The notes under the pieces: generated by a model
Seen by the model: only the letters and a program-made list of their open reading frames with translations
Told to the model about the DNA's origin: nothing
Database searches by the model: none
Origin: Chitinophagaceae bacterium
GTDB taxonomy: Bacteria; Bacteroidota; Bacteroidia; Chitinophagales; Chitinophagaceae
Assembly (NCBI GenBank): GCA_039935335.1
Contig: JBDTKK010000099.1
Coordinates: forward strand, 659-64,658
Direction: 5' to 3'
DNA length: 64,000 bases
In this document: positions 6,366 to 62,316 of the stretch, in pieces
Position numbering within the stretch: the first letter of the stretch is position 1
Layout of the letters: the number at the start of each line of letters is the position of its first letter
Position numbers and translations under genes: made by a program

Positions 6366-8339
6366 ATGGCTAAAGCTGTTAGTACTACCAACAGTAAGCA
6401 TACTGCTACTAAGGCTGTAAAGACACCGGCAACGGCAAAGGATTCAAAGGCTGTAAAAAACAGTCCAAAAACTTCCGAAGTAAAAGCTACTCCAGCCAAA
6501 AAGGCTATAGTGAAAAAGGCAACCATTACTAAAAGCAGTTTAAAAAAGGTTGTTGCGGCAAAGAAAGCAGTTGCACCTAAGAAAGTTCTTGCAAAACCTG
6601 TGAGCCTACCTAAGAAGCCTGCAGCAAAAGTGGCATCCGCAAAAGCTAAAACGGCAACTGTAGTTAAGGCTAGCAAGAAAGTACCGGCGGTCAAGAAACT
6701 TGTAGCTAAAACGCTGGTAGTTAGAAAGCCTACGAAAAGCATTTCTAAAAAGATTGTTGTGGCGAAGAAAGTTGCTCCTAAAAAGGCAATAATCGCGCCC
6801 ACAAAGGCACTTCCTAAGAAAGTAACGGCAACAAAAAAGGCGGCAGTCGCAAAGAAAGTAGCTACTCCAAAAAAGGCGATTTCAAAAGAAAAAATAGCAT
6901 CTCCCGCAAAAGGCATTTCTAATATAAAGGTTACTCCAAAGAAGGTTGTAGCATCTAAAAAGGCGATTTCAAAGAAGGTAATAGCAACTCTTGAAACGAA
7001 CATTTCTAATAAAAAGACAACCTCAAAAAAGGTTGCTCCGAAGAAGGTTGTCACTGCTAAAAAAGCAATTTCAGAGAAGGTAATAGCAACTCCGGAAAAG
7101 AGCATTTTTACCAAAAAGACTACTCCAAAAAAGGTAGCGCCAAAGAAGATCGTAGCTTCTAAAAAGACCGTTGAAAAGAAGGTAATAGCAACTCCCGAAA
7201 AGAGCATTTCTAGTAAGAAAACTAATCCTAAAAAGCTTGCTCCAAAGAAGAATAATGTTCCTAAAAAGGCGGTCAAAAGAGTAGCTACATCGCCAGAAGT
7301 ACTCAAGTCCGACAAAGAGAAAGTTTCCCAAAAAACTGCTGCAAAAAAGGCTGTAGCTTCTAAAAAGCCTGTAGCTACCAAAAAGGAAGTAACGCCTAAG
7401 AAAACTGCCCTACCTAAAAAGGAAACTGCGCCTAAGAAAAAGGCTACACCAAAGAAAAAGGCAACCCCAAAAAAGAAATCTTCAGCTAAAAAGGCGCAAT
7501 CAAAGAATACACCTAAGCCCAAACCGGCGGAGCTGGTAAAGGAAATTTCAGCTCAGGTAGAAGCCGTTAAGCAACACCTGAATTTGGATAAGGCTGTAAG
7601 CAGAATTCTTATCACACAGCCTCGCCCCGATTCTGATAGAAGCCCCTATTTTGAACTGGCCAAGAAATACAATATCGACCTAGATTTCTTTCCATTCATT
7701 CGAGTGGAAGGCGTTACTGGGCGCGACTTTCGTCGGCAGCGGGTGAACGTTCCAAACCATACTGCCATCGTGTTTACAAGCCGTAGTGCTGTGGATCATT
7801 TCTTCCGCATTTTGGATGAGATGAAAGTGCGTGTGAGTCAGGAAATGAAGTATTGCTGCATCACGGAAGCGGTGGCACTTTATCTTCAAAAATTCATTCT
7901 TTACCGCAAGAGGAAAGTGTTTTTCTCCGCTGATGGCAGCGTGCAAGGCTTGCTGGACGTTATTGGAAAACATAAGAACGAGAAATATGTAGTCCCTACA
8001 TCGGAAACAGGCAAGAACGAAATTGGAGCGTACATGACGAAGCATAGTATCGCATTTAGTGAGGCCACGCTGTACCGCACCATTAGCAATGATATTGACT
8101 CTGTGATGAAGAAATTCATGTACGATATGGTTGTGTTTTTCTCTCCATTTAGCGTCCAAACTTTGCAGGAACATACGCCGACCTTTAAGCAGAATGGTAC
8201 TGTTTTTGGGGCTTTTGGCCCTATTACTTCTAAAGCAATCGAAGACTTAGGTTTCCGCTTAGACGTAAAAGCTCCTGCGCCAAACGCACCTTCAATGGTC
8301 ACCGCGTTGGAGCAGTTTTTAGAAGCATTCAAGAAATAA
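6366..8339 (+). CDS. hemD: Uroporphyrinogen-III synthase (HemD) domain protein with a ~390-aa lysine/alanine/proline-rich histone-H1-like N-terminal extension
   Basis: The C-terminal ~250 aa (ILITQPRPDSDRSPYFELAKKY...FTSRSAVDHFF...VFFSPFSVQTL...GPITSKAIEDLG) has the HemD fold pattern. The N-terminal part is KKxAxPKK-type low complexity. It is a single uninterrupted frame with no in-frame ATG between 6366 and the HemD domain. The only alternative start is an in-frame TTG at 7584. Confidence 0.75.
   Translation: MAKAVSTTNSKHTATKAVKTPATAKDSKAVKNSPKTSEVKATPAKKAIVKKATITKSSLKKVVAAKKAVAPKKVLAKPVSLPKKPAAKVASAKAKTATVVKASKKVPAVKKLVAKTLVVRKPTKSISKKIVVAKKVAPKKAIIAPTKALPKKVTATKKAAVAKKVATPKKAISKEKIASPAKGISNIKVTPKKVVASKKAISKKVIATLETNISNKKTTSKKVAPKKVVTAKKAISEKVIATPEKSIFTKKTTPKKVAPKKIVASKKTVEKKVIATPEKSISSKKTNPKKLAPKKNNVPKKAVKRVATSPEVLKSDKEKVSQKTAAKKAVASKKPVATKKEVTPKKTALPKKETAPKKKATPKKKATPKKKSSAKKAQSKNTPKPKPAELVKEISAQVEAVKQHLNLDKAVSRILITQPRPDSDRSPYFELAKKYNIDLDFFPFIRVEGVTGRDFRRQRVNVPNHTAIVFTSRSAVDHFFRILDEMKVRVSQEMKYCCITEAVALYLQKFILYRKRKVFFSADGSVQGLLDVIGKHKNEKYVVPTSETGKNEIGAYMTKHSIAFSEATLYRTISNDIDSVMKKFMYDMVVFFSPFSVQTLQEHTPTFKQNGTVFGAFGPITSKAIEDLGFRLDVKAPAPNAPSMVTALEQFLEAFKK
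6879..7271 (+). repeat. In-frame 102-bp (34-aa) tandem repeats, 3 full copies plus 1 shorter copy, inside the K-rich extension
   Basis: Copies start at 6966, 7068 and 7170 (exact 102-bp spacing): ISKKVIATLETNISNKKTTSKKVAPKKVVTAKKA / ISEKVIATPEKSIFTKKTTPKKVAPKKIVASKKT / VEKKVIATPEKSISSKKTNPKKLAPKKNNVPKKA. A 29-aa related copy precedes them. Confidence 0.85.
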
Positions 8340-19065: not shown

Positions 19066-20016
19066 ATGGCCCGTATCAACTTTCCAGACAACTTTGCTGC
19101 ACAGCAAACCCTCCTTACCAACCTCCACGCCAAACACACTGCGGACGGTACTTCCAGCGACCTACTGCCCTACTTTGCGCAGCAAAACCTAAACATAGCA
19201 GCCGATGTAGCAGCCGGCGAACAGGCAGCAATCCATGAGACCGCTCGAGGGCTATTTAGCAGAAATGCTGAAAACTTCAGAGAGCTTCGCGACAACCGTT
19301 TTAAGCCTGTATTTGCCCGCTTCAAAGGCTTGGTGCAATTCCTCAAAAGCCTGAACAAAGGCAACGAAAGAGCACTTGCCGAATGGGGTATTACGGTTGA
19401 TAATCAATCCAAAATTGTATATCCTACAGACTTTGATACACAAGCCGCGCTCTACACCACTTTTGCCGAAAAGCATTCCAGCTTTGACCCCATCAGCGCA
19501 CCGCTCAATCCGTACATCGGCAAACAAATCATCTCTATGGACGCAGACCATACTGCCGTCACCAATGCCACCACGAGCAATGCCAGCATGAAGGCTGCGG
19601 CCAATAATTCTGAATCAGAAAAAGTATTGCGCGATAATCTTTGGCAGCCGGTGGTGGCGCACCTGCGCGGTTCTATTGATTATCTTAAAAAATTGAATAG
19701 CGATAACCCGAAAGCCCTCGGCGCCTGGGGCATTACGGCGGATGACTCGCCACGGCAGCCGCGGGTGCGGACTACGAGCCTGATAATTGGGGAAACGATT
19801 ACGATAAGTGGAGCTATTATTGGCGGTACTTTTACTAATCTTGGCGCGAGCGATTTACATCTTTATAAAGGAAAGACTACTACTGGGACGCCGGAGATAG
19901 TACATGCTGGGGAGCAGTTTGGGATTTTGAAGGGATGGAGTATTCTTACTGTGGTTAATGTTTCTGTGTTGGTTGCGGGGAAATTTAGTTTGCTGGTAAG
20001 CAACACTGCGATTTAG
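19066..20016 (+). CDS. Hypothetical 316-aa protein with an internal ~41-aa duplication, no signal peptide
   Basis: ELRDNRFKPVFARFKGLVQFLKSLNKGNERALAEWGITVDN (aa 73-113) matches VLRDNLWQPVVAHLRGSIDYLKKLNSDNPKALGAWGITADD (aa 187-227). No known family recognised. Confidence 0.6.
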   Translation: MARINFPDNFAAQQTLLTNLHAKHTADGTSSDLLPYFAQQNLNIAADVAAGEQAAIHETARGLFSRNAENFRELRDNRFKPVFARFKGLVQFLKSLNKGNERALAEWGITVDNQSKIVYPTDFDTQAALYTTFAEKHSSFDPISAPLNPYIGKQIISMDADHTAVTNATTSNASMKAAANNSESEKVLRDNLWQPVVAHLRGSIDYLKKLNSDNPKALGAWGITADDSPRQPRVRTTSLIIGETITISGAIIGGTFTNLGASDLHLYKGKTTTGTPEIVHAGEQFGILKGWSILTVVNVSVLVAGKFSLLVSNTAI

Positions 20017-20027
20017 GAGGCTAAAAA

Positions 20028-20237
20028 GATGTACGGAAGGCGGCGAAAGATGTACGGAATAATGAAAATAATGTGCGGAATAATGAAAATAATGTGCGGA
20101 ATAATAAAAATAATGTGCGGAATTTACCAAATAATGTACGGAATAGTGTAAATAATGTGCGGAATAATAGAAATAATGTGCGGAATTATGAAAATAATGT
20201 GTGGAATAATTGAATAAATGCAGAGAATTCCAACGAT
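20028..20237. repeat. Tandem array of ~9-10 copies of a 21-bp unit (consensus AATGTGCGGAATAATGAAAAT)
   Basis: Units start at 20028, 20049, 20070, 20091, 20112, 20133, 20154, 20175, 20196 and 20217 (the last is degenerate). The ATGTRCGGAAT core is conserved and the spacer half is variable. Confidence 0.9.
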
Positions 20238-20336: not shown

Positions 20337-20957
20337 ATGAAGCTTATATTAACACTCGTGCTGGCCGTAATCGTTGGAACAAGTTCCTATGGACAAGTTA
20401 TAACTTATAACAACTTTAAAGCTGTTATTCCCTTTTTACAGAAAGAAGATTTCAAAGAAGCTTTCAACATGACTAGCGAACTGTTAACTTCAACCCAAAA
20501 CGACACTTCTGATTTACGAGGAATAGTTACTTATATGAATATTTTTTCGGCAGCAGGTATGTTGACACTTGACCAAATGACTTATGATGACTTTACTAAA
20601 AATGCAAACAAGTATATTGGACACTATATTGTTATGTCTGCACATCCTTGTATTGACAGTTCGTCTCACGGTTATAATTCATTACAGTTTTTTACACATA
20701 GCAGCGGAAAATTACACGGGATGACAATAACGACGAATCACGCGAAGACAAACATTCTTTGTTTTGAATACTTTGACTATTCCGATCCAATTAACTCTTC
20801 AGATTTTATCGAAAAAAATGTCAGATGTGGCGGAATATTGCAGACCGTGGAAACGAATCCCAATAAATCGAAAATTTGGATAGCAAGACTTCGTATTGTA
20901 GATGCCTTTGCAAGAATTATGACCCCGTTGCCTATAGGCTCTTCACATCGGCGTTAA
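20337..20957 (+). CDS. Hypothetical secreted protein
   Basis: Signal peptide MKLILTLVLAVIVGTSSYGQ. A+T-rich, no recognisable family. Confidence 0.55.
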   Translation: MKLILTLVLAVIVGTSSYGQVITYNNFKAVIPFLQKEDFKEAFNMTSELLTSTQNDTSDLRGIVTYMNIFSAAGMLTLDQMTYDDFTKNANKYIGHYIVMSAHPCIDSSSHGYNSLQFFTHSSGKLHGMTITTNHAKTNILCFEYFDYSDPINSSDFIEKNVRCGGILQTVETNPNKSKIWIARLRIVDAFARIMTPLPIGSSHRR

Positions 20958-25486: not shown

Positions 25487-25555
25487 TTAGCACACGCCAA
25501 TCGTTTTGGTGAAAATTGCCGCCCTTCTTTGGTCGGCATGCTTGAATATCAGCCT

Positions 25556-26656
25556 ATGAAAATCCGCTTACTAACGCTTGGCTTTGCGCTTACTTTTATA
25601 CTGCCCAAAACAATGCTGGCGCAGGTTACAGGCGGTCAGCATGTCTTTGAGTTTTTGAATTTGGCGCAGTCGGCACATATCTCTGCACTGGGCGGTGTCA
25701 ACGTCTGCAACCCGATGGAAGATGTGTCTTTGGCCTTGCAAAATCCTGCGCAAATGCGGCCAAGTTTACACAACCAATTGAGCGTTGGTTACAACAGCTA
25801 TTATGCGGGCGTATCGATAGCTAATCTGGCTTACGGCTACTATGCACCAAAGCTGAACACGGCTTTTATTTTGGGCATTCAATACTTGAATTATGGCAGT
25901 TTTCACGGCATGGATGATATCGGAAATCCGACTGTAGATTTCAAGGCCAGCGACTACTTTGTTTCGCTTGGTGCGAGCAAAAAATATGGTGAACGCTGGC
26001 GTTATGGCGCGGCTTTAAAATTGGCGTATTCAAACTATGCAACCGCCACTGCCACCGCTTTGCTGGCGGATGTGGGCATTCTTTACACGGACACGGCAAA
26101 CCTCATCACCTTTGGCGCAACGGCCAAGAACATCGGCTTCATGACGCAGCAATTTGAAGGTTCAGGCAGCGAGCCGCTTCCCTTCGATTTGCAGTTGGGT
26201 ATTTCCAAGCGTTTTGCGCATTTGCCGCTTCGCTTAATGGCCACCGTGCATCATCTCTACGAATGGGATATCCGCTATAATAATCCGGCAGATTTTGTGA
26301 GCAATTCCCTGACGGGCGGCTCTGATTCTTCCAGCCTTACCAAAAAATATTTTGCTGATAAACTATTTCGACATTTCATTTTGGGCGCGGAGCTTTCTTT
26401 GGGTAAAAGATTGACCTTCGGTTTGTCTTACAATCACCTTCATCGTGCGGAGTTGGCCTTGCCCGACAAGAAAGGTCTTGCAGGATTCTCTTTTGGCGCT
26501 TCGCTTAATCTGAACAAATTTCAGGTGCATTATGCGCGGAGTTATTATTCAATTGTTGGGGCGTACAACGAATTTGGCCTCGCGATGAACCTAAATAAAT
26601 TGGGCATGGGCAAAGGAGATAATTTCAATGCGGTTTGGACGGAGAAGGAACTGTAA
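25556..26656 (+). CDS. porQ: PorQ-like type IX secretion system outer-membrane beta-barrel protein
   Basis: Signal peptide followed by GGQHVFEFLNLAQSAHISALGG, which matches my recollection of the PorQ N-terminal signature. Beta-barrel periodicity throughout. Confidence 0.55.
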   Translation: MKIRLLTLGFALTFILPKTMLAQVTGGQHVFEFLNLAQSAHISALGGVNVCNPMEDVSLALQNPAQMRPSLHNQLSVGYNSYYAGVSIANLAYGYYAPKLNTAFILGIQYLNYGSFHGMDDIGNPTVDFKASDYFVSLGASKKYGERWRYGAALKLAYSNYATATATALLADVGILYTDTANLITFGATAKNIGFMTQQFEGSGSEPLPFDLQLGISKRFAHLPLRLMATVHHLYEWDIRYNNPADFVSNSLTGGSDSSSLTKKYFADKLFRHFILGAELSLGKRLTFGLSYNHLHRAELALPDKKGLAGFSFGASLNLNKFQVHYARSYYSIVGAYNEFGLAMNLNKLGMGKGDNFNAVWTEKEL

Positions 26657-26932
26657 GAATGCAAAATTAAAAATGCAAAATTAAAAAGCTCGTGGAATGT
26701 GGGTGAGTTGAGTAGATTTAGGGAATGAGGCTCTAGGATTCTTAATAATTCAGCGATAGAGAAGTACATTCTGCGCTATGCTCAAGTCAAAATTTAGCTG
26801 GTGTGAAGAAGTCCTTCTATTCTTCTAAAAAGGATGCTGGTTTCAAGCAGAAACCTACAATAATTCCCCAAATGACACAGGAGTTTAAACTTCTGCTTTC
26901 AATTTTCAGACTGTTAGTTTTACCTTCAAAGA

Positions 26933-49064: not shown

Positions 49065-49101
49065 GAAATGAATAAGGCTTAGGCCACCAAAAGTAACGGA
49101 A

Positions 49102-50056
49102 ATGAACTTTGAAGTTTCGGGCTCTGCTCTATTCTACCGCATCTTTGTGTTTGTTTTGCCAATCTCGCTGTCTTTCAAAGCATCCATAATCCCTGAAATC
49201 CACTGAAACACCAGTTGAATTCAGTGTTCCATTCTGGATTTTCTTGGTTATTGGAGCGATCTATTTCTATGTTTTTCGCTTTGATGTGATGGACGTAGAC
49301 GCTTCGCAAGATGTCGAAATGAGCCGCGTAATGAGCCATCGCCACAATTGGCTTCAAATCTTTGACAGTGGAAGGATTACCTCGATAAACCGCCGTTCCG
49401 CTTTTAGTTATTTGCCTTGTGCTTGAAGGCTTTTGGCATCACAAATTTCGCCTAGAAACTGCCTTCAGGCTACCTTCAATTCTATTCGCCTTTCTAGCCA
49501 TTTTCTCTATTTATCGATTAGCTCTAACCCTCTATAATGCAAGCCTGGCGAAGATTACAGCATTTGTGCTCGCATCTAAGGACTCTTTCTTTGGACAAAT
49601 GATGTGCCTACAAACACGATGCTAATTAATTGTGTGATCACCCCCATTTTGTGCGTTGGAGAATGAGAGCAAAAGTGCCGATGGCATTTTGTGTCGGGAA
49701 GTACTCTCGCAATCGCTTACGGCATGATCACGAAAGGATCAATCGTTCTGTTGATTCCTGTATTTACCATAGGTTATGATCGGGTGTTTCGCGGAAAATA
49801 GTAACTGCTTTTTCTGGCTTGGCATTTGCTAGATGCAGCCATCATAGCGGCTTTCATGCTACCGATGTGCATTGGATTATACCAACAATTTGATCTCCAT
49901 CTCGAAAAAATAATTCTTGGTCAGCACAATCTTTCGGGTATAAAATTCTTTTTCTGGAGGCAAAGTTTTGGCGGTGTAACAGGAGGAAATTCTTGGAATA
50001 ATGGCGCCAGTCTTTTGTTTCGTTTGAATAGTGTGCTTTGGATGTTTCTGCCCTAG
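49102..50056 (+). pseudogene. Heavily decayed GT39/ArnT-like membrane glycosyltransferase (multiple frameshifts and stops); decay probably extends to ~50.9 kb
   Basis: Family-typical pieces are scattered over all three frames: DVDASQDVEMSRVM, YLDKPPF, AFRLPSILFAFLAIFSIYRLALTLYN, GMITKGSIVLLIPVF, QQFDLHLEKIILGQHNLSGIKFFFWRQSFGGVTGGNSWNN...LWMFLP. No ORF over 76 aa lies between 49.1 and 51.28 kb. Confidence 0.65.
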
Positions 50057-51282
50057 ATTTTCCAATTTTTAACAACAATAATCTTGAACGTAAAGTAGAT
50101 TTTTTAACAAAAATTCCGACTCGCTGAAAGACAAGAATGAGTAAGCTCTAAAGGCTTCCCTTCCGGTACTTTTCCCTTTGCTTGCCGCACTACCTGCTAC
50201 TACATTCCAAACTAGTAGCGTTTCCGTTGGTGGTAATTTTAATCGTGAAATCTCACTACGAAATGGTTGTGGCCAGGAAATTTCAATGCCCAAAGAAAGT
50301 TTGGCTAAGTTCTAATCGAAATCACTTGGAGAAAGTAGCGATAAGATGACGCTATCAAATTCGTTGCAGGTCGGAAAACATGCACTGGTGTCACTGTAAG
50401 GAAAAGACCATGTAAAAAATACAAAACCGAAATTAGAACCGCGCGGAAGTTTTTGGTACCATTCAAATTGTAATCAGCGTTTTGATTTTAGTTGCTGTAC
50501 TTTTAATTCTCATCGTTGTGTTTCCTGCGGAAAAGGCGGTTGTCTTTTTGTGGCCTTGTGCGTTTGGCATTTGGCAATCCCTTCAGTTGAAAATGTAAAT
50601 ACCGGACAAGACATATTGGATGTGGTCAACTACCATGATATTTGCAACCTACGCATATTATATATAATAATGCTCCAAAATGTAATGCTTGAACGAGGGT
50701 GGGAAAGATTTCCCAAACGGACTAGATTTCGCCCGCGAAGATCATAAGTTGGCTGATACTAGTCCGCATTTGGCTATTTGTATTTTTATGCTGGTAGAAT
50801 TATTGGGGAGAATGACGGCTATCCTGCCCAAGCAAAACTGCCTGTGCTATACTGCCGCGCTAAGCTCTTTAAAATCGCACTAAAGGAAGCTCGCGTAGGG
50901 GATTGGTTGCTTTTGCCCTGAATGCTCTATAGAGGGTCTGTAGTGACCCTACAATTCCCTAACGCCAATACACGGGGCAGCATAAAAAAACGAACTATTT
51001 TGCGTGATTGAAATAGAAATTTTGGAAATAATTTTGGCAGGATTTGACATTAGTCGGATAAATATGGAAAGCCAAACGCAGGAAAGTGAAAGTTGATCCA
51101 GCCAATGCTCTACCAAAAACTGTACAACGAGGAAAAGTACATGTAGCAACCTCGGAATAAAGAATTGGTTTCACTATTCAACGAGCCTAATGATAGGTTG
51201 TAAAGGAGTCCATTGAACAATAACATGTATTATAATCAGCTACAAACAAGATGACAATATAACATCACAAATGTATCAACTC

Positions 51283-58643: not shown

Positions 58644-61133
58644 TTATTTTTTGACGGAGTAGTCAACTTCTTGTTCTTCATTCAGTTTCACCATTATTGT
58701 ATCGCCCTTTCCTACTCCTCCAGCCACAATAAGTTTGGAAATTGGCCTCCGTAAATGAGTTCGAATCACTCCAGAAATTTGCCTTGCACCATACTTTGGC
58801 GTGAACCCTGTAAGGGCAATTTTTTGCTTGGCCTCTTCGGTTATTTCCAATAAAATTCCTTGCTTGTCGAGGCTTTCCAAAAGGCTTTTCATCTGAATCT
58901 CCAAAATCTTAACAACATTGGATTCACTGATGGGCGCGAAGGGAATAATCTCGGTGAGGCGAGCCAAAAACTCGGGGCGGAAATACTTCGTCATAATCTC
59001 CATCAACTGGTTGGACTTGGGCATAATATTCTGGCCAAATTGCTCTACAATCCACTCGCTGCCTATGTTTGAGGTGAAGATGATTAACGAGTTCGAGAAG
59101 TCTCCTTCCTTACCCAATCGATCGCTCATTTTCCCTTCGTCAAGTATCTGCAGGAAGATGTCAAACACTGATGGATGAGCCTTTTCAATTTCATCGAAAA
59201 GCACGACAGAATAAGGCTGCTGGCGGATTTTATTCACCAATACTCCACCCTCTTCGTAACCCACATATCCTGGAGGTGCACCGTACAACAATGCTGCAGA
59301 ATGCTCTTCTTTAAACTCCGACATGTCGAAGCGAATCATCGCTTTTTCATCGTTGAACAAAAAGTCTGCGATTGCTTTTGCGACTTCCGTTTTACCAGTA
59401 CCTGTAGGCCCAAGCAAGAAGAAGGAGCCTATTGGCTGCCCGGGTTTATTAAGGCCGCTACGCGACTCTACAATAGCATCTGCAAGCGCTTTCACGGCGT
59501 GGTCTTGCCCCACAACTCTACGCTTAATGATACTTTCCATTTCCTGAAGCTTTTGTTGCTCCTTCGCTTGGATTTTACCCATCGGGATGCCCGTTTTGAA
59601 AGCAACGATTGCCGCCAATTCGGCTTTAGTTACTTCGTCTTTTATTTCAGCCGCAAATTCTTTCAAACTCGTCAAAGTATGACCCAGCGCAGTTTCTATG
59701 TCTGTAGCGGTCTCCAATTTGCCAATGTCTGTAGGGTCAAGCAGTTTGCCAAACAATACAGGGCTAAGGCTATTTTTCAAAGATTGGTAGAACCATTTGT
59801 ACTCCGAGATTCTTTCCACATCATCAAGCTCTGCGTCTTTCACTAAAGCTTCAAATTGTGTGGTGAGCGTATCCAGTTCAGGAATGGAAGTTTCGTTCAT
59901 CATTTTGATGGCTGCCATGGTACGATCCAACAAATCCACCGCAGAGTCTGGCAGGCGACGATCTTTTACATAACGCTTTGCCAATCTTGCACATTCTGCA
60001 AGTACGTCTTTTTCAATTTTCAACTTATGATGGGCTTCAAATGCAGATGCCAATTTTTGCAACATTTTCGCGGCTGTGGACATGTCCGGCTCTTCCACTC
60101 GAATCACCTCAAACCTGCGGCTGAAAGCCTGTTCAGGCTCTATAAGCTTGCGATATTCATCCAAAGTAGTTGCACCAATCACTGTAATTTCGCCGCGTGC
60201 CAGTTCGGGTTTCAAAAGGTTTGCAGCACCGCCGGCACTACCTTTTGGATCCAAAAGTGTATGGATTTCATCGATGAAAAGAATGGCTTTGTCAAACTGC
60301 TTTATTTCCTTAATAATGCTCTTCAATCGCTCTTCTACTTCGCCTTTGTAAGATGCTCCGGCAAAAAGAGATCCTAAATCGAGCTCGTACAAAAAGGCTT
60401 CCTTGAGCGCATCGGGCACTTTTCCTTCTACAATACTTAGCGCGAAACCGTCTATTAGCGCGGTTTTGCCCACGCCAGGATCACCTGTTATTATCACATT
60501 AGGCTTGGTGCGGCGGCCAAGTACTTCCAACATCATTCTCGTTTCCTTGTCGCGGCCAACAATCGGGTCAATTTTCCCTTCTTTAGCCAGCGCAATCTTG
60601 TCGATGCAATATTTCAGCAAAGCCACGTTGGCCTTGCCTTGCGAGGCTGTGCCTTCTACTCCGTCTATAGCCTGAGTGGTACCTAGAGTTTGGCTAAGCG
60701 AACTATCATTGAGATAGAGGTCTAGAATCTCCTTTTCCCGAAGGGGAAAGGACTTCAATTCTTCAGAACTAAAACCAACATTTGGCTTTACCAATGCTGT
60801 AAGCGCGCAAATTGGCGAAACATCATTCAAGCCTAGCTTTAAGCGAATGTTATCCGCTTCTTCAAGGGCATTTGCAGTCTTCTCATCTGCTGTGATGTTT
60901 TCTACGCTTTTGCCACTTTTAGGCAGCTCATCGATGCGTATTTCGGCCCATTCCGTCATGTAACCAATATCTTTCCCTAAGGAATTGAGGAAGGGATGCA
61001 ATCCAGCATCTTTGTGCAATAGTCCGCGCAACAAATGTGGAAGCGAAAATTGCTCGTTTTTGTTTTCTCTTGCAAAGGAAATGGCTACCTGAATAGCTGT
61101 TTTCAGGGATTCACTAAAGGAAAGCGTTGTCAT
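58644..61133 (-). CDS. clpV: Type VI secretion AAA+ ATPase ClpV (TssH)
   Basis: Clp N-domain plus two AAA+ modules: Walker A GDPGVGKTA and Walker B ILFIDEIH in the first, Walker A GPTGTGKTE and Walker B VVLFDEIEKAH in the second. Lies inside the T6SS cluster. Confidence 0.9.
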   Translation of the reverse strand: MTTLSFSESLKTAIQVAISFARENKNEQFSLPHLLRGLLHKDAGLHPFLNSLGKDIGYMTEWAEIRIDELPKSGKSVENITADEKTANALEEADNIRLKLGLNDVSPICALTALVKPNVGFSSEELKSFPLREKEILDLYLNDSSLSQTLGTTQAIDGVEGTASQGKANVALLKYCIDKIALAKEGKIDPIVGRDKETRMMLEVLGRRTKPNVIITGDPGVGKTALIDGFALSIVEGKVPDALKEAFLYELDLGSLFAGASYKGEVEERLKSIIKEIKQFDKAILFIDEIHTLLDPKGSAGGAANLLKPELARGEITVIGATTLDEYRKLIEPEQAFSRRFEVIRVEEPDMSTAAKMLQKLASAFEAHHKLKIEKDVLAECARLAKRYVKDRRLPDSAVDLLDRTMAAIKMMNETSIPELDTLTTQFEALVKDAELDDVERISEYKWFYQSLKNSLSPVLFGKLLDPTDIGKLETATDIETALGHTLTSLKEFAAEIKDEVTKAELAAIVAFKTGIPMGKIQAKEQQKLQEMESIIKRRVVGQDHAVKALADAIVESRSGLNKPGQPIGSFFLLGPTGTGKTEVAKAIADFLFNDEKAMIRFDMSEFKEEHSAALLYGAPPGYVGYEEGGVLVNKIRQQPYSVVLFDEIEKAHPSVFDIFLQILDEGKMSDRLGKEGDFSNSLIIFTSNIGSEWIVEQFGQNIMPKSNQLMEIMTKYFRPEFLARLTEIIPFAPISESNVVKILEIQMKSLLESLDKQGILLEITEEAKQKIALTGFTPKYGARQISGVIRTHLRRPISKLIVAGGVGKGDTIMVKLNEEQEVDYSVKK

Positions 61134-61220
61134 AGTTTCTAAAAAAAATAAAAGTTGTTTTCGTAAAAATACTTTTTATTCTCGGAGAAACAAATGCTGA
61201 TGGAATGATAAAGGCAAAAG

Positions 61221-61248
61221 ATTAATGGTTAATGATTAATGGTTAATG
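61221..61248. repeat. Perfect tandem duplication of the 14-mer ATTAATGGTTAATG, ~90-115 nt upstream of the clpV start
   Basis: 61221-61234 and 61235-61248 are identical. Each copy contains the palindrome ATTAAT. Confidence 0.85.
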
Positions 61249-61280
61249 GTGTGGGGACATTCCGTTGTGGATACATTGAA

Positions 61281-61459
61281 AAGGCAAAGGGCGAAATGCA
61301 AAAAGCAACGGACAATGGGCAAAGGGCAAAGGGCAAAAGACAATGGGCAAAAGGCAATGGGCAAAAAGCAACGGACAAAGGGCAAAGGGTAATGGGCAAC
61401 GGGCAAAGGGTAACGGGCAAAAGGCAATGGGCAAAAGGCAATAGGCAAAAAGGGTAGGC
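61281..61459. repeat. About 27 tandem copies of a 6-7-nt unit GGGCAAn (TTGCCCn on the transcribed minus strand), including (G3N4)5G3 tracts
   Basis: Read directly. For example 61380-61417 = GGGcaaaGGGtaatGGGcaacGGGcaaaGGGtaacGGG, and 61317-61347 = GGGcaaaGGGcaaaGGGcaaaagacaatGGG. A higher-order ~64-bp repeat is also present (GCAAAAAGCAACGGACAAnGGGCAAAGGG occurs twice). Confidence 0.9.
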
Positions 61460-61735
61460 TCATTCCCGTACGGTTGCCTTGAAAAGTTAAAAGAACTCCC
61501 CTGTTGTCTTTTTAGTTTGGGTGATTTGGAGTCAAAAAGCATTCAATCACGCTGCAGATATGAAAGCATTCGCTGGAAGGAAATCCCTTCAATTTTCAAT
61601 CCATTTCCCGAAGAAAATCTCTACACTTTTGCACCATCTCTTTGAAAAAAAACTCTGAATTGAGCCAATGCTTTTTTTCTAGCTTCCTACTTTTTTTTGA
61701 AGATTTCAGTAGCGGTCTAAATGCTTTCGAGCTTT

Positions 61736-61772
61736 TTAAAAAGAAAATCCCAGCCACTTGCGCGACTGGGAT
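61736..61772 (-). terminator. Candidate intrinsic terminator after tssO
   Basis: On the minus strand: ATCCCAG-12 nt-CTGGGAT followed by TTTTCTTTTTAA. Lies ~35 nt after the tssO stop. Confidence 0.5.
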
Positions 61773-61806
61773 CCACCTAAAAATAATTTTTCCTAAAAGC
61801 CCAGAG

Positions 61807-62316
61807 CTATTGCGTAGGAGGCATAGGCATCGGAGCTGCGCCCATACCCATCATGGGATTGCTTTGCACCGCTTTGAGCTTCGCGTCCATATCTTGAAGC
61901 TTGAGCAAGGCATCCTTCAATTTGGCTTGTGCATCCACCAATTGTGTGACGTGTGTAAAATGCTTCTCGTAGCTGGCGCGAATAGTAGGTACGATGGCAA
62001 TTGAAGTATCCATCCTGCTCAAATCGGAAATACCATCTGCAATTTTCTGCTTGAGCAAAACTGGATTTTCAACGGTTGCAGAGGCTAGTAAATTGATGTT
62101 GGAATCAATTTCAGCCATTTTCTTCAAAATGATTTTTTGCGTGTGCTCGAAGTTGGAATAGGCCACTAATTTGTCGGACTCGCCCTGACTTATTTCCTCG
62201 GGCACTTTGTAGTAGGAAAAGAATATCAACGCGGCGGGCACCATGGCGAGCGCGAAAAAGATAAACACGAATTGCCAGAGCGATTTGCTACGTTCCTTGC
62301 TATTGATTGGTTTCAT
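61807..62316 (-). CDS. tssO: Bacteroidota-specific T6SS transmembrane protein TssO
   Basis: 169 aa with a single N-terminal TM (LWQFVFIFFALAMVPAALIFFSYY) followed by a coiled-coil. Size, topology and position next to tssK fit TssO of T6SS-iii. Confidence 0.55.
   Translation of the reverse strand: MKPINSKERSKSLWQFVFIFFALAMVPAALIFFSYYKVPEEISQGESDKLVAYSNFEHTQKIILKKMAEIDSNINLLASATVENPVLLKQKIADGISDLSRMDTSIAIVPTIRASYEKHFTHVTQLVDAQAKLKDALLKLQDMDAKLKAVQSNPMMGMGAAPMPMPPTQ

What the first reader, a model, noticed from the sequence alone, without database searches (positions are those of the whole stretch)
61281..61459. GGGCAAn microsatellite with canonical G-quadruplex motifs inside the T6SS cluster, on the template strand
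About 180 bp between tssO and clpV consists almost entirely of 6-7-nt GGGCAAn units. Positions 61380-61417 carry six G3 tracts separated by exactly 4-nt loops, which is a textbook G4 motif. Positions 61317-61347 carry three more tracts plus a fourth after an 11-nt loop. The G-rich strand is the plus strand, which is the template for the minus-strand T6SS genes. The RNA or sense strand would carry TTGCCC repeats. The array lies ~150-330 nt upstream of the clpV start and downstream of a candidate terminator. It is therefore positioned to act on promoter activity, on read-through from tssK-tssO, or as a slippage-prone phase-variation tract. I know of no described regulatory element of this kind in T6SS-iii loci.
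Basis: partly seen in the sequence, partly recalled or inferred. Interest (0 to 1): 0.65.

Follow-up and report, generated by a model that had tools for sequence, protein, structure and literature searches.

The report
Degenerate G-rich 7-base tandem repeat
The stretch is a real 25-unit tandem repeat of a 7-base G-rich motif in a strain-specific spacer that splits a type VI secretion gene cluster, but it belongs to an already described class of intergenic 7-base repeats found next to unrelated genes in many bacteria and is absent from related secretion clusters, so it is probably ordinary repeat DNA and not a dedicated switch.

Summary
Window 61279-61453 is a gap-free array of 25 heptamers, consensus AAAGGGC on the + strand and TTGCCCn on the sense strand of the T6SS genes. 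Six G3 tracts with 4-nt loops lie at 61380-61417. This is the only canonical G4 motif in the 64 kb.

The interpretation as a T6SS-specific regulatory element is not supported.
- In six related T6SS-iii loci, tssO and clpV are 38-148 bp apart, with no heptamer array.
- In the closest relative, the cluster is broken exactly at this junction.
- The 673-bp spacer with terminator-like hairpin and array is therefore specific to this lineage.
- Arrays of the same GGGYAAN/NNGGCAA type occur at unrelated loci in other Chitinophagaceae, in Saprospiraceae and in many cyanobacteria. They appear in both orientations and between convergent genes.
- Other contigs in the same soil metagenomes carry such arrays with unrelated flanks.

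G-rich, G4-capable heptamer repeats and mixed heptamer arrays in Bacteroidetes were described in 2015 (PMC4692102, PMC4679880), without a proven function.

The units are degenerate: 11 variants, longest perfect run 3 units. A related strain differs by about 15 inserted bases, close to two extra units. Slippage and unequal recombination is the best explanation.

Verdict: new member of a known kind, low interest. An incidental effect on clpV expression is not excluded.

The parts
61279..61453 (+). Main heptanucleotide array: 25 gap-free 7-nt units, consensus AAAGGGC (TTGCCCn/GCCCTTT on the - strand, which is the sense strand of clpV); 14-nt super-period AAAAGGCAATGGGC
   Evidence: TRF period 7 and 14; in-register listing; unit table with 11 variants
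61380..61417 (+). Six G3 tracts with 4-nt loops (canonical G4 motif)
   Evidence: Regex scan: only hit in 64 kb; G4Hunter 1.28-1.32 and G4 in the MFE structure, -8.96 kcal/mol
61317..61347 (+). Three G3 tracts with 4-nt loops plus a fourth after an 11-nt loop; contains the longest perfect tract (GGGCAAA x3, 61317-61337)
   Evidence: Sequence; longest perfect period-7 run
61300..61425 (+). Higher-order duplication inside the array: 61300-61362 and 61363-61425 are 51/63 identical in register, the mark of unequal exchange or slippage of multi-unit blocks
61220..61250 (+). Second, unrelated heptamer array TTAATGG x4, 28 nt from the main array
   Evidence: TRF; period-7 scan
61164..61194 (-). Only Bacteroidetes-type promoter candidate in the spacer: TTTG, 19 nt, then TATTTTTA (one mismatch to TAnnTTTG). 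It lies between the arrays and the clpV ATG
   Evidence: Consensus scan. Background is 1.45 such sites per kb per strand, so this is a candidate only
61745..61774 (-). Terminator-like hairpin (13 pairs, 6 G-C) followed by a T run, 33 nt after the tssO stop
   Evidence: single copy in the window
61134..61806 (.). 673-bp tssO-clpV spacer, specific to this lineage. Orthologous spacers are 38-148 bp, and the non-repeat parts have no detectable relatives
   Evidence: spacers; no similarity outside the array
61807..62316 (-). tssO (169 aa)
   Evidence: Pfam PF17561, E 9.8e-14
58644..61133 (-). clpV (829 aa, the same length as in relatives)
   Evidence: Pfam AAA_2, AAA_lid_9, ClpB_D2-small; orthologues of 829-832 aa

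Best explanation
The feature is a lineage-specific, degenerate heptanucleotide tandem array. It belongs to the known class of intergenic heptamer repeats, in its G-rich, G4-capable sub-class. It grew in place by replication slippage and unequal exchange of one-unit and multi-unit blocks. It sits in a 673-bp spacer that arose recently at the tssO-clpV junction of a Chitinophagaceae-like soil bacterium.

The spacer also carries a terminator-like hairpin, and it splits what is a tightly packed gene run in relatives. The G4 motif is a by-product of a unit that contains GGG. The array is most likely neutral or nearly neutral repeat DNA that marks an unstable junction. It is probably not a dedicated T6SS control element. 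Any effect on the clpV-tssBC-hcp promoter would be incidental.

Shown: the anatomy, the lack of conservation, the occurrence of the same array type at unrelated loci, and the differences between strains. Inferred: the slippage mechanism and the absence of a dedicated function.
For: 1. Anatomy typical of an evolving minisatellite. There are 25 in-register units with 11 variants. The longest perfect run is 3 units. A 63-nt block is duplicated at 81% identity. A different heptamer array, TTAATGG x4, abuts it.

2. Not conserved. The tssO-clpV spacers are 68, 143, 60, 63, 148 and 38 bp in L128, L130, L139, L140, L142 and L143. No period-6, 7, 8 or 14 tract occurs in 22 related loci. The closest relative, at 91% TssO identity, has tssO followed by a different hairpin and unrelated genes.

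3. Same array type elsewhere. A pattern scan found at least 120 genomic stretches before it was capped. About 54 are cyanobacterial and about 15 are from Bacteroidota, including Saprospiraceae and Chitinophagaceae. In those loci period 7 covers 17.2 kb, against 0.2-1.2 kb for periods 5, 6, 8 and 9. Arrays in Chitinophagaceae with nearly the same units (AATGGGC, AATAGGC, AAAAGGC) flank AlaRS, transketolase, CusB/OEP efflux and inositol monophosphatase genes. The host is Chitinophagaceae-like.

4. No positional logic. A crude census gave 31 aligned cases (G-rich strand sense in 18, antisense in 13), 17 convergent and 6 divergent.

5. Same metagenomes. Many contigs match only the array and have unlike flanks. 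Depth over array words reaches about 200x, against about 5x for the locus.

6. Fast turnover. A related strain in run X3 shows about 2.5% substitutions in the flank. Within the first 62 nt of the array it shows 15 inserted bases, among them one 7-nt block (TGAAACG) and a cluster of 7 bases at 61306-61312.

7. Literature. The same picture is published: variable unit number, indels in 7-nt steps, relatives with short repeat-free spacers, and no function found (PMC4692102; PMC4679880).
Against: - Function was not tested. No RNA data exist for this locus, so the transcription start site is unknown.
- The array lies between co-directional genes with its G-rich strand antisense to the downstream gene. 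PMC4692102 reports this configuration as favoured, although within 50 bp of the gene.
- It persists in at least two strain variants.
- Only 64 kb of the host genome is available and holds one such locus. Dispersal within this genome itself is therefore not shown.
- The census of genomic context used crude ORF calls.
Confidence: 0.66

Rival explanations
1. Cis-regulatory G-quadruplex. When the + strand is unwound, for example by read-through from tssO or by negative supercoiling behind RNA polymerase, the six G3 tracts fold on the template strand. The folded structure then either blocks read-through, acting as a second barrier after the terminator, or keeps the region open and alters clpV promoter firing.
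For: Canonical six-tract motif; G4Hunter 1.28-1.32; G4 predicted in the MFE structure. The array lies between a terminator-like hairpin and the clpV start. Related heptamer oligonucleotides form G4s in vitro, and G4 effects in E. coli depend on position and strand (PMC4692102).
Against: It is absent from all related T6SS-iii loci. In the same family, arrays of this type have the G-rich strand on the sense strand or lie between convergent genes. The motif is 250-280 nt from the ATG and upstream of the only candidate promoter. The score is below the strict 1.5 threshold, and other places in the window score higher. PMC4692102 itself found no regulatory role.
Confidence: 0.14
2. Contingency (phase-variation) locus. 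Gain and loss of 7-nt units changes clpV-tssBC-hcp expression, as the (ATCTTTC)n tract does for hmw1A in Haemophilus influenzae.
For: A related strain differs by inserted bases, including one 7-nt block. Heptamer repeats are a known phase-variation substrate (PMC12721329). T6SS is a costly, contact-dependent weapon for which on/off heterogeneity could pay; this last point is inference.
Against: The units are degenerate and the longest perfect run is 3 units, which predicts low slippage rates. The array is not between the -33 and -7 elements and not in an ORF. The sense RNA shows no unusual structure (z = +0.44), so an hmw-type long hairpin is not supported. Only contigs are available, so heterogeneity within a population cannot be seen.
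Confidence: 0.08
3. Multivalent binding platform. The array, as DNA or as (UUGCCCN)n in a long 5' leader, recruits many copies of a sequence-specific protein that controls the downstream operon. A similar role was proposed for TAACTGA repeats in Beggiatoaceae.
For: Five of the seven unit positions are nearly invariant (AA..GGC) while the others drift, which could reflect a constrained core. A proposal of this kind exists (PMC4679880).
Against: The same pattern is expected from recent common descent of the units. No candidate binding protein is encoded nearby. Arrays occur in both orientations and between convergent genes. There is no evidence that the array is transcribed.
Confidence: 0.07
4. 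The array is part of a small protein-coding gene (ORFs 61243-61542 or 61236-61463 on the - strand, or 61239-61457 on the + strand), or it is an assembly artefact.
For: Open frames of 72-99 aa run through the array on both strands.
Against: A 7-nt period is not a multiple of 3, and all frames are open only because the units lack stop codons. No Pfam match reaches significance. The inserted bases in the related strain total 15, but the separate 7-nt insertions would break any frame between them. An independent contig spans the whole region without differences, and both junctions are seen in other samples.
Confidence: 0.02

Closest known systems
G-rich quadruplex-forming heptamer repeats: GGGAATC in Xanthomonas, GGGGA(C/T)T in Nostoc (Rehm et al. 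2015, PMC4692102)
   Same: Tandem 7-nt units with a G3 tract. Intergenic. Highly variable unit number (2-26 there, 25 here). G4-capable. Frequent between co-directional genes. Extensive length and sequence variation between close relatives. Neighbouring genes of any function. No function established.
   Different: The unit motif is GGGCAAN, not GGGNATC or GGGGAYT. The host is a Chitinophagaceae-like Bacteroidota. The array is long and degenerate, not the preferred four perfect units. It lies 146-320 nt from the ORF, not within 50 nt. Abundance across this host genome is not shown.
Heptamer direct-repeat arrays (TAACTGA and others) in Beggiatoaceae, Cyanobacteria and Bacteroidetes (MacGregor 2015, PMC4679880), and the cyanobacterial STRR heptanucleotide repeats (Calothrix PCC 7601; cited in PMC4692102, otherwise my own knowledge)
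   Same: Long intergenic arrays in Bacteroidetes that are mixed with other heptamers. Close relatives have the same gene neighbourhood but shorter spacers without repeats. Strain differences come in 7-nt steps. Association with rearranged junctions.
   Different: The unit sequence differs. In Beggiatoaceae the repeats sit a few nucleotides upstream of start codons on the sense strand, which is not the case here.
Phase-variable (ATCTTTC)n tract upstream of hmw1A/hmw2A in Haemophilus influenzae (PMC12721329)
   Same: A heptanucleotide tandem repeat upstream of a surface or secretion-related operon.
   Different: The hmw tract is a perfect repeat, it is transcribed in the 5' UTR, and it pairs with a G-rich arm to form a long RNase III-cleaved hairpin. 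Here the units are degenerate, transcription is unknown, and the sense RNA has no unusual structure.
pilE-associated G4 of Neisseria gonorrhoeae (my own knowledge; cited in PMC4692102 as promoting antigenic variation)
   Same: A bacterial G4 motif upstream of a surface-structure locus.
   Different: That element is a single conserved 16-nt G4 that drives recombination with silent copies. It is not a tandem array, and no silent cassettes or similar system are visible here.

Membership tests
Intergenic heptanucleotide repeat arrays (heptamer SSR / STRR-like class) | Head-to-tail repeats of a 7-nt unit, at least several copies | tested here: met
   25 in-register units, 0% indels
Intergenic heptanucleotide repeat arrays (heptamer SSR / STRR-like class) | Non-coding, intergenic location | tested here: met
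   Lies between tssO and clpV. ORFs through it have no family match, and the 7-nt period is incompatible with coding
Intergenic heptanucleotide repeat arrays (heptamer SSR / STRR-like class) | Same kind of array at many unrelated loci in the host genome | tested here: inconclusive
   Only one locus in the 64 kb available and none in about 170 kb of related T6SS loci. Arrays of the same type are nevertheless abundant in the same metagenomes with unlike flanks, and occur in four other Chitinophagaceae genomes
Intergenic heptanucleotide repeat arrays (heptamer SSR / STRR-like class) | Unit number and unit sequence vary between close relatives | tested here: met
   The strain in run X3 has 15 inserted bases, including a 7-nt block, plus unit substitutions
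G4-forming G-rich heptamer repeats (Rehm et al. 2015) | Four or more consecutive units each carrying a G3+ tract (G3+N1-7 x4) | tested here: met
   Six tracts at 61380-61417
G4-forming G-rich heptamer repeats (Rehm et al. 2015) | Unit motif GGGNATC / GGGGA(C/T)T | tested here: not met
   The unit is GGGCAAN / GGGTAAN. It is a different motif of the same kind
G4-forming G-rich heptamer repeats (Rehm et al. 2015) | K+-dependent quadruplex formation in vitro | not testable with these tools
   Prediction only: G4Hunter 1.28-1.32; MFE -8.96 kcal/mol with G4 against -1.2 without
Phase-variable SSR (contingency locus) | Long perfect or near-perfect tract | tested here: not met
   Longest perfect tract is 3 units (21 nt); 11 variants among 25 units
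Phase-variable SSR (contingency locus) | Tract inside an ORF, between promoter hexamers, or in the 5' UTR, so that unit number sets expression | tested here: inconclusive
   It lies upstream of the only candidate promoter. The TSS is unknown because no RNA runs were found
Phase-variable SSR (contingency locus) | Length heterogeneity within a population | not testable with these tools
   The runs are held only as assembled contigs
Conserved T6SS-iii cis-element | Present at the same place in related T6SS-iii clusters | tested here: not met
   Six orthologous junctions of 38-148 bp without repeats, and no arrays in 22 related loci
Known RNA families (Rfam 15) | Match to a curated covariance model | tested here: not met
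   No hit in or near the spacer at E <= 1, and none at gathering score in the whole window

The most novel reading that the evidence does not exclude
The hairpin plus heptamer-array spacer was recruited as an insulator or tuner. On this reading it splits an ancestrally contiguous T6SS-iii gene run, so that clpV, the sheath genes and hcp are expressed separately from the membrane and baseplate genes. Folding of the template-strand G4 and evolutionary changes in unit number would then set the expression level. More broadly, GGCAA-type heptamer arrays in Chitinophagaceae and Saprospiraceae would be a shared, actively generated element that marks or creates operon break-points.
Probability: 0.1. 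Interest if true: 0.5.

Novelty: new member of a known kind. Interest (0 to 1): 0.2.

Why it matters
The finding matters little for T6SS biology, because the array is not a conserved part of T6SS-iii loci.

It does add a clear Bacteroidota example to the unsolved problem of why heptamer tandem repeats are so over-represented in some bacterial lineages, namely cyanobacteria, Beggiatoaceae, Saprospiraceae and Chitinophagaceae. Here the ancestral state (a short spacer), a sister lineage with a rearrangement at the same junction, and strain-level unit turnover can all be seen side by side.

If the array did modulate clpV-tssBC-hcp expression, it would be a natural case of operon splitting by repeat expansion.

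Tried and rejected
- Rfam found nothing in the spacer at E <= 1 and nothing at gathering score in the whole window.
- No RNA sequencing run holds the locus, so the TSS and read-through could not be examined.
- The exact TssO sequence is not on record. The exact TssC is found only on a 2.2-kb contig, so the rest of the host genome could not be reached.
- The metagenome scan with a TssO profile gave only 8 loci, none with arrays.
- The non-repeat parts of the spacer have no similarity to the rest of the window, to the orthologous spacers, or to any fetched locus. A MITE or IS remnant could not be supported.
- The terminator-like hairpin is single-copy in the window.
- An hmw-like long RNA hairpin is rejected. 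The sense RNA folds no better than shuffles (z = +0.44) and the array is mostly unpaired.
- Coding ORFs through the array are rejected (and the insertions).
- A sigma-70-type scan gave one weak site, fewer than in shuffles. A promoter inside the array is not supported, because no TAnnTTTG site with a correctly spaced TTTG lies within it.
- I considered planar DNA bending by phased A-tracts and set it aside by reasoning only. A 7-bp phasing does not match the roughly 10.5-bp helical repeat.

Full report
**What is there.** Window 61279-61453 is a gap-free tandem array of 25 seven-base units. Tandem Repeats Finder reports period 7 with 24.4 copies and 0% indels, and a 14-nt super-period AAAAGGCAATGGGC. 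Read in register, every unit is 7 nt, so there are no 6-nt units. The consensus is AAAGGGC on the + strand. On the - strand, which is the sense strand of the surrounding genes, it reads TTGCCCn. Unit positions 1, 2, 5, 6 and 7 are nearly fixed, and positions 3 and 4 drift. There are 11 unit variants. The longest perfect run is three units (61317-61337). Two 63-nt blocks, 61300-61362 and 61363-61425, are 81% identical in register, so blocks of several units were duplicated. A second, different heptamer array, TTAATGG x4, lies 28 nt away at 61220-61250.

**G4 motifs.** The former is the only canonical G4 motif on either strand of the 64 kb. Its G4Hunter score is 1.28-1.32, above the permissive 1.2 threshold and below 1.5, and a few other places in the window score higher. 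ViennaRNA with quadruplex terms places a G4 in the minimum-energy fold (-8.96 against -1.2 kcal/mol). A single four-tract motif per 64 kb is not rare by chance (mean 0.25 in simulations). The 175-nt period-7 tract is what lies beyond chance: no other period from 4 to 15, apart from 14, gives any tract in the window.

**Context.**
- The genes are a Bacteroidota-type (T6SS-iii) cluster on the - strand, in transcription order: TssN, TssK, TssO (61807-62316), ClpV (58644-61133), TssB, TssC, two Hcp, VgrG, TssE (gp25-like) and TssF.
- A protein with a T9SS sorting domain lies elsewhere in the window. An IcmF-like mutase is 82-84% identical to those of Taibaiella, Polluticoccus and 'Chitinophagaceae bacterium'. 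Together these place the host in or near the Chitinophagaceae.
- The window comes from soil or rhizosphere metagenomes.
- A terminator-like hairpin with a T run follows tssO at 61774-61745.
- The only Bacteroidetes-type promoter candidate in the spacer is TTTG-N19-TATTTTTA at 61194-61164. It lies between the arrays and the clpV ATG. About one such site is expected by chance in a spacer of this size, so it is no more than a candidate.
- The array is real DNA. One independent contig spans 60800-62300 without a difference, and contigs of two other samples join the array to either flank.

**The array is not part of the T6SS-iii design.** TssO homologues led to orthologous loci. In six relatives with 65-78% TssO identity, tssO and clpV are separated by 68, 143, 60, 63, 148 and 38 bp. 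None of these short spacers shows an obvious hairpin with a T run when read by eye; no terminator scan was run on them. None of 22 related loci, about 170 kb in all, holds any period-6, 7, 8 or 14 tract. In the closest relative (91% TssO identity), tssO is followed by a different hairpin and by unrelated genes on the other strand, so the cluster is broken at exactly this junction. The 673-bp spacer is therefore a recent, lineage-specific acquisition at an unstable junction. Apart from the arrays, its sequence resembles nothing in the window, in the orthologous spacers or in any fetched locus.

**The same kind of array is common elsewhere.**
About 54 are from cyanobacteria, mostly filamentous. 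About 15 are from Bacteroidota: six Saprospiraceae, four Chitinophagaceae (two of them Ferruginibacter) and five others.
- In these loci period-7 tracts cover 17.2 kb, against 0.2-1.2 kb for periods 5, 6, 8 and 9. Many 8-kb loci hold several independent heptamer arrays.
- The Bacteroidota arrays look like this one. Their units are TTGCCCA, TTGCCCT, AATGGGC, AATAGGC and AAAAGGC, they drift along the array, and they abut other heptamers.
- In the host's own family they flank alanyl-tRNA synthetase, transketolase, CusB/OEP efflux genes and inositol monophosphatase.
- They occur with the G-rich strand either sense or antisense, and between convergent genes. A crude census gave 31 co-directional cases (18 sense, 13 antisense), 17 convergent and 6 divergent.
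- In the same soil metagenomes, many contigs match only the array and continue into unrelated flanks. Array words reach about 200x depth where the locus itself has about 5x.
- One gap remains. Only 64 kb of this genome is available and it holds one such locus, so dispersal within this very genome is not shown.

**Turnover.** A related strain in run X3 has about 2.5% substitutions in the clpV-proximal flank. In the first 62 nt of the array it has four substitutions and 15 inserted bases, among them one 7-nt block and a cluster of 7 bases. The array therefore evolves faster than its flanks, roughly by whole units. Within-population heterogeneity cannot be judged, because these runs are held only as contigs.

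**Comparison with what is known.**
- Rehm et al. 2015 (PMC4692102) described G-rich heptamer repeats, GGGAATC in Xanthomonas and GGGGAYT in Nostoc. They are abundant and intergenic, have 2-26 units, form G4s in vitro, are commonest between co-directional genes, and vary between close relatives. They sit next to genes of every class. The authors found no regulatory role and judged phase variation unlikely.
- MacGregor 2015 (PMC4679880) described heptamer direct repeats in Beggiatoaceae, Cyanobacteria and Bacteroidetes. In Bacteroidetes the arrays are long and mixed with other heptamers. Close relatives have the same neighbourhood but shorter, repeat-free spacers. Strain differences come in 7-nt increments, and a link to gene rearrangement was suggested. 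This matches what is seen here.
- The hmw (ATCTTTC)n tract of H. influenzae (PMC12721329) is a functional heptamer repeat. It is a perfect repeat, it is transcribed, and it forms a long hairpin. Here the units are degenerate and the sense RNA folds no better than shuffles (z = +0.44).

**Explanation and rivals.**
- Most likely (about 0.66): the array arose and keeps changing through slippage and unequal exchange in a newly created spacer, and its G4 motif is a by-product of a GGG-containing unit. It has no dedicated role in T6SS control.
- Template-strand G4 acting on read-through or on the clpV promoter: about 0.14.
- Contingency locus: about 0.08.
- Multivalent protein- or RNA-binding platform: about 0.07.
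- Coding sequence or assembly artefact: about 0.02. The 7-nt period, the insertions between strains, the lack of Pfam matches and the independent contigs all argue against it.

**Verdict.** This is a new member, with a new unit motif and a new host family, of a known kind of repeat. Interest is low. The useful residue is a clean natural example of ancestral short spacer, expanded spacer with arrays, and sister-lineage rearrangement, bearing on the open question of why heptamer repeats proliferate in certain bacterial lineages.

Noticed in passing
window 49065-51282: A 2.2-kb stretch directly downstream of tssF has no ORF of 80 aa or more. The only family hint is a sub-threshold PMT_2 (glycosyltransferase 39-like) fragment at 49419-49625 on the + strand (E 2.7e-4). 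It is probably one or more decayed pseudogenes at the edge of the T6SS cluster.
   Followed up: partly
window 20050-20210: Intergenic 21-nt tandem repeat, 7.7 copies (ATGTGCGGAATAATGAAAATA), between ORFs 19066-20016 (+) and 20337-20957 (+).
   Followed up: no
window 6870-7251: Tandem repeats of 87 and 102 nt lie inside the long ORF 6366-8339 (+). The protein therefore contains a repeated A-rich (Lys codon-rich) segment.
   Followed up: no
window 26645-26688: A mini-array TAAAAATGCAAAAT x2.4 (heptamers AATGCAA / AATTAAA) lies just after ORF 25529-26656 (+). It is the only other period-7/14 tract in the window and has the same A-rich style.
   Followed up: partly
window 61745-61774 and run X1: The terminator-like hairpin after tssO has a 4-mismatch relative on another 1642-nt contig of the same metagenome at similar depth (10.3 against 11). 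It may belong to a small family of repeated hairpins. It is single-copy in the window.
   Followed up: partly
L122-L127 (closest relative, 91% TssO identity): The T6SS cluster is interrupted immediately after tssO. A different hairpin follows, then a PhaC-like hydrolase gene on the opposite strand, a gene of unknown function and a radical-SAM gene. ClpV, TssB and TssC must lie elsewhere in that genome or be lost.
   Followed up: partly
L142 5656-8158: In one relative clpV is called as five fragments and tssK and tssC are also split. These are possible pseudogenes, or homopolymer errors of a long-read assembly.
   Followed up: no
window 61229-61239: Within the TTAATGG array the sequence TTAATGATTAA is a perfect 5-1-5 inverted repeat. 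It lies about 35-45 nt upstream of the candidate -33 element and could be a binding site for a dimeric protein, or mere chance.
   Followed up: no
whole window: No tRNA, rRNA, riboswitch or other Rfam family reaches its gathering score anywhere in the 64 kb.
   Followed up: yes
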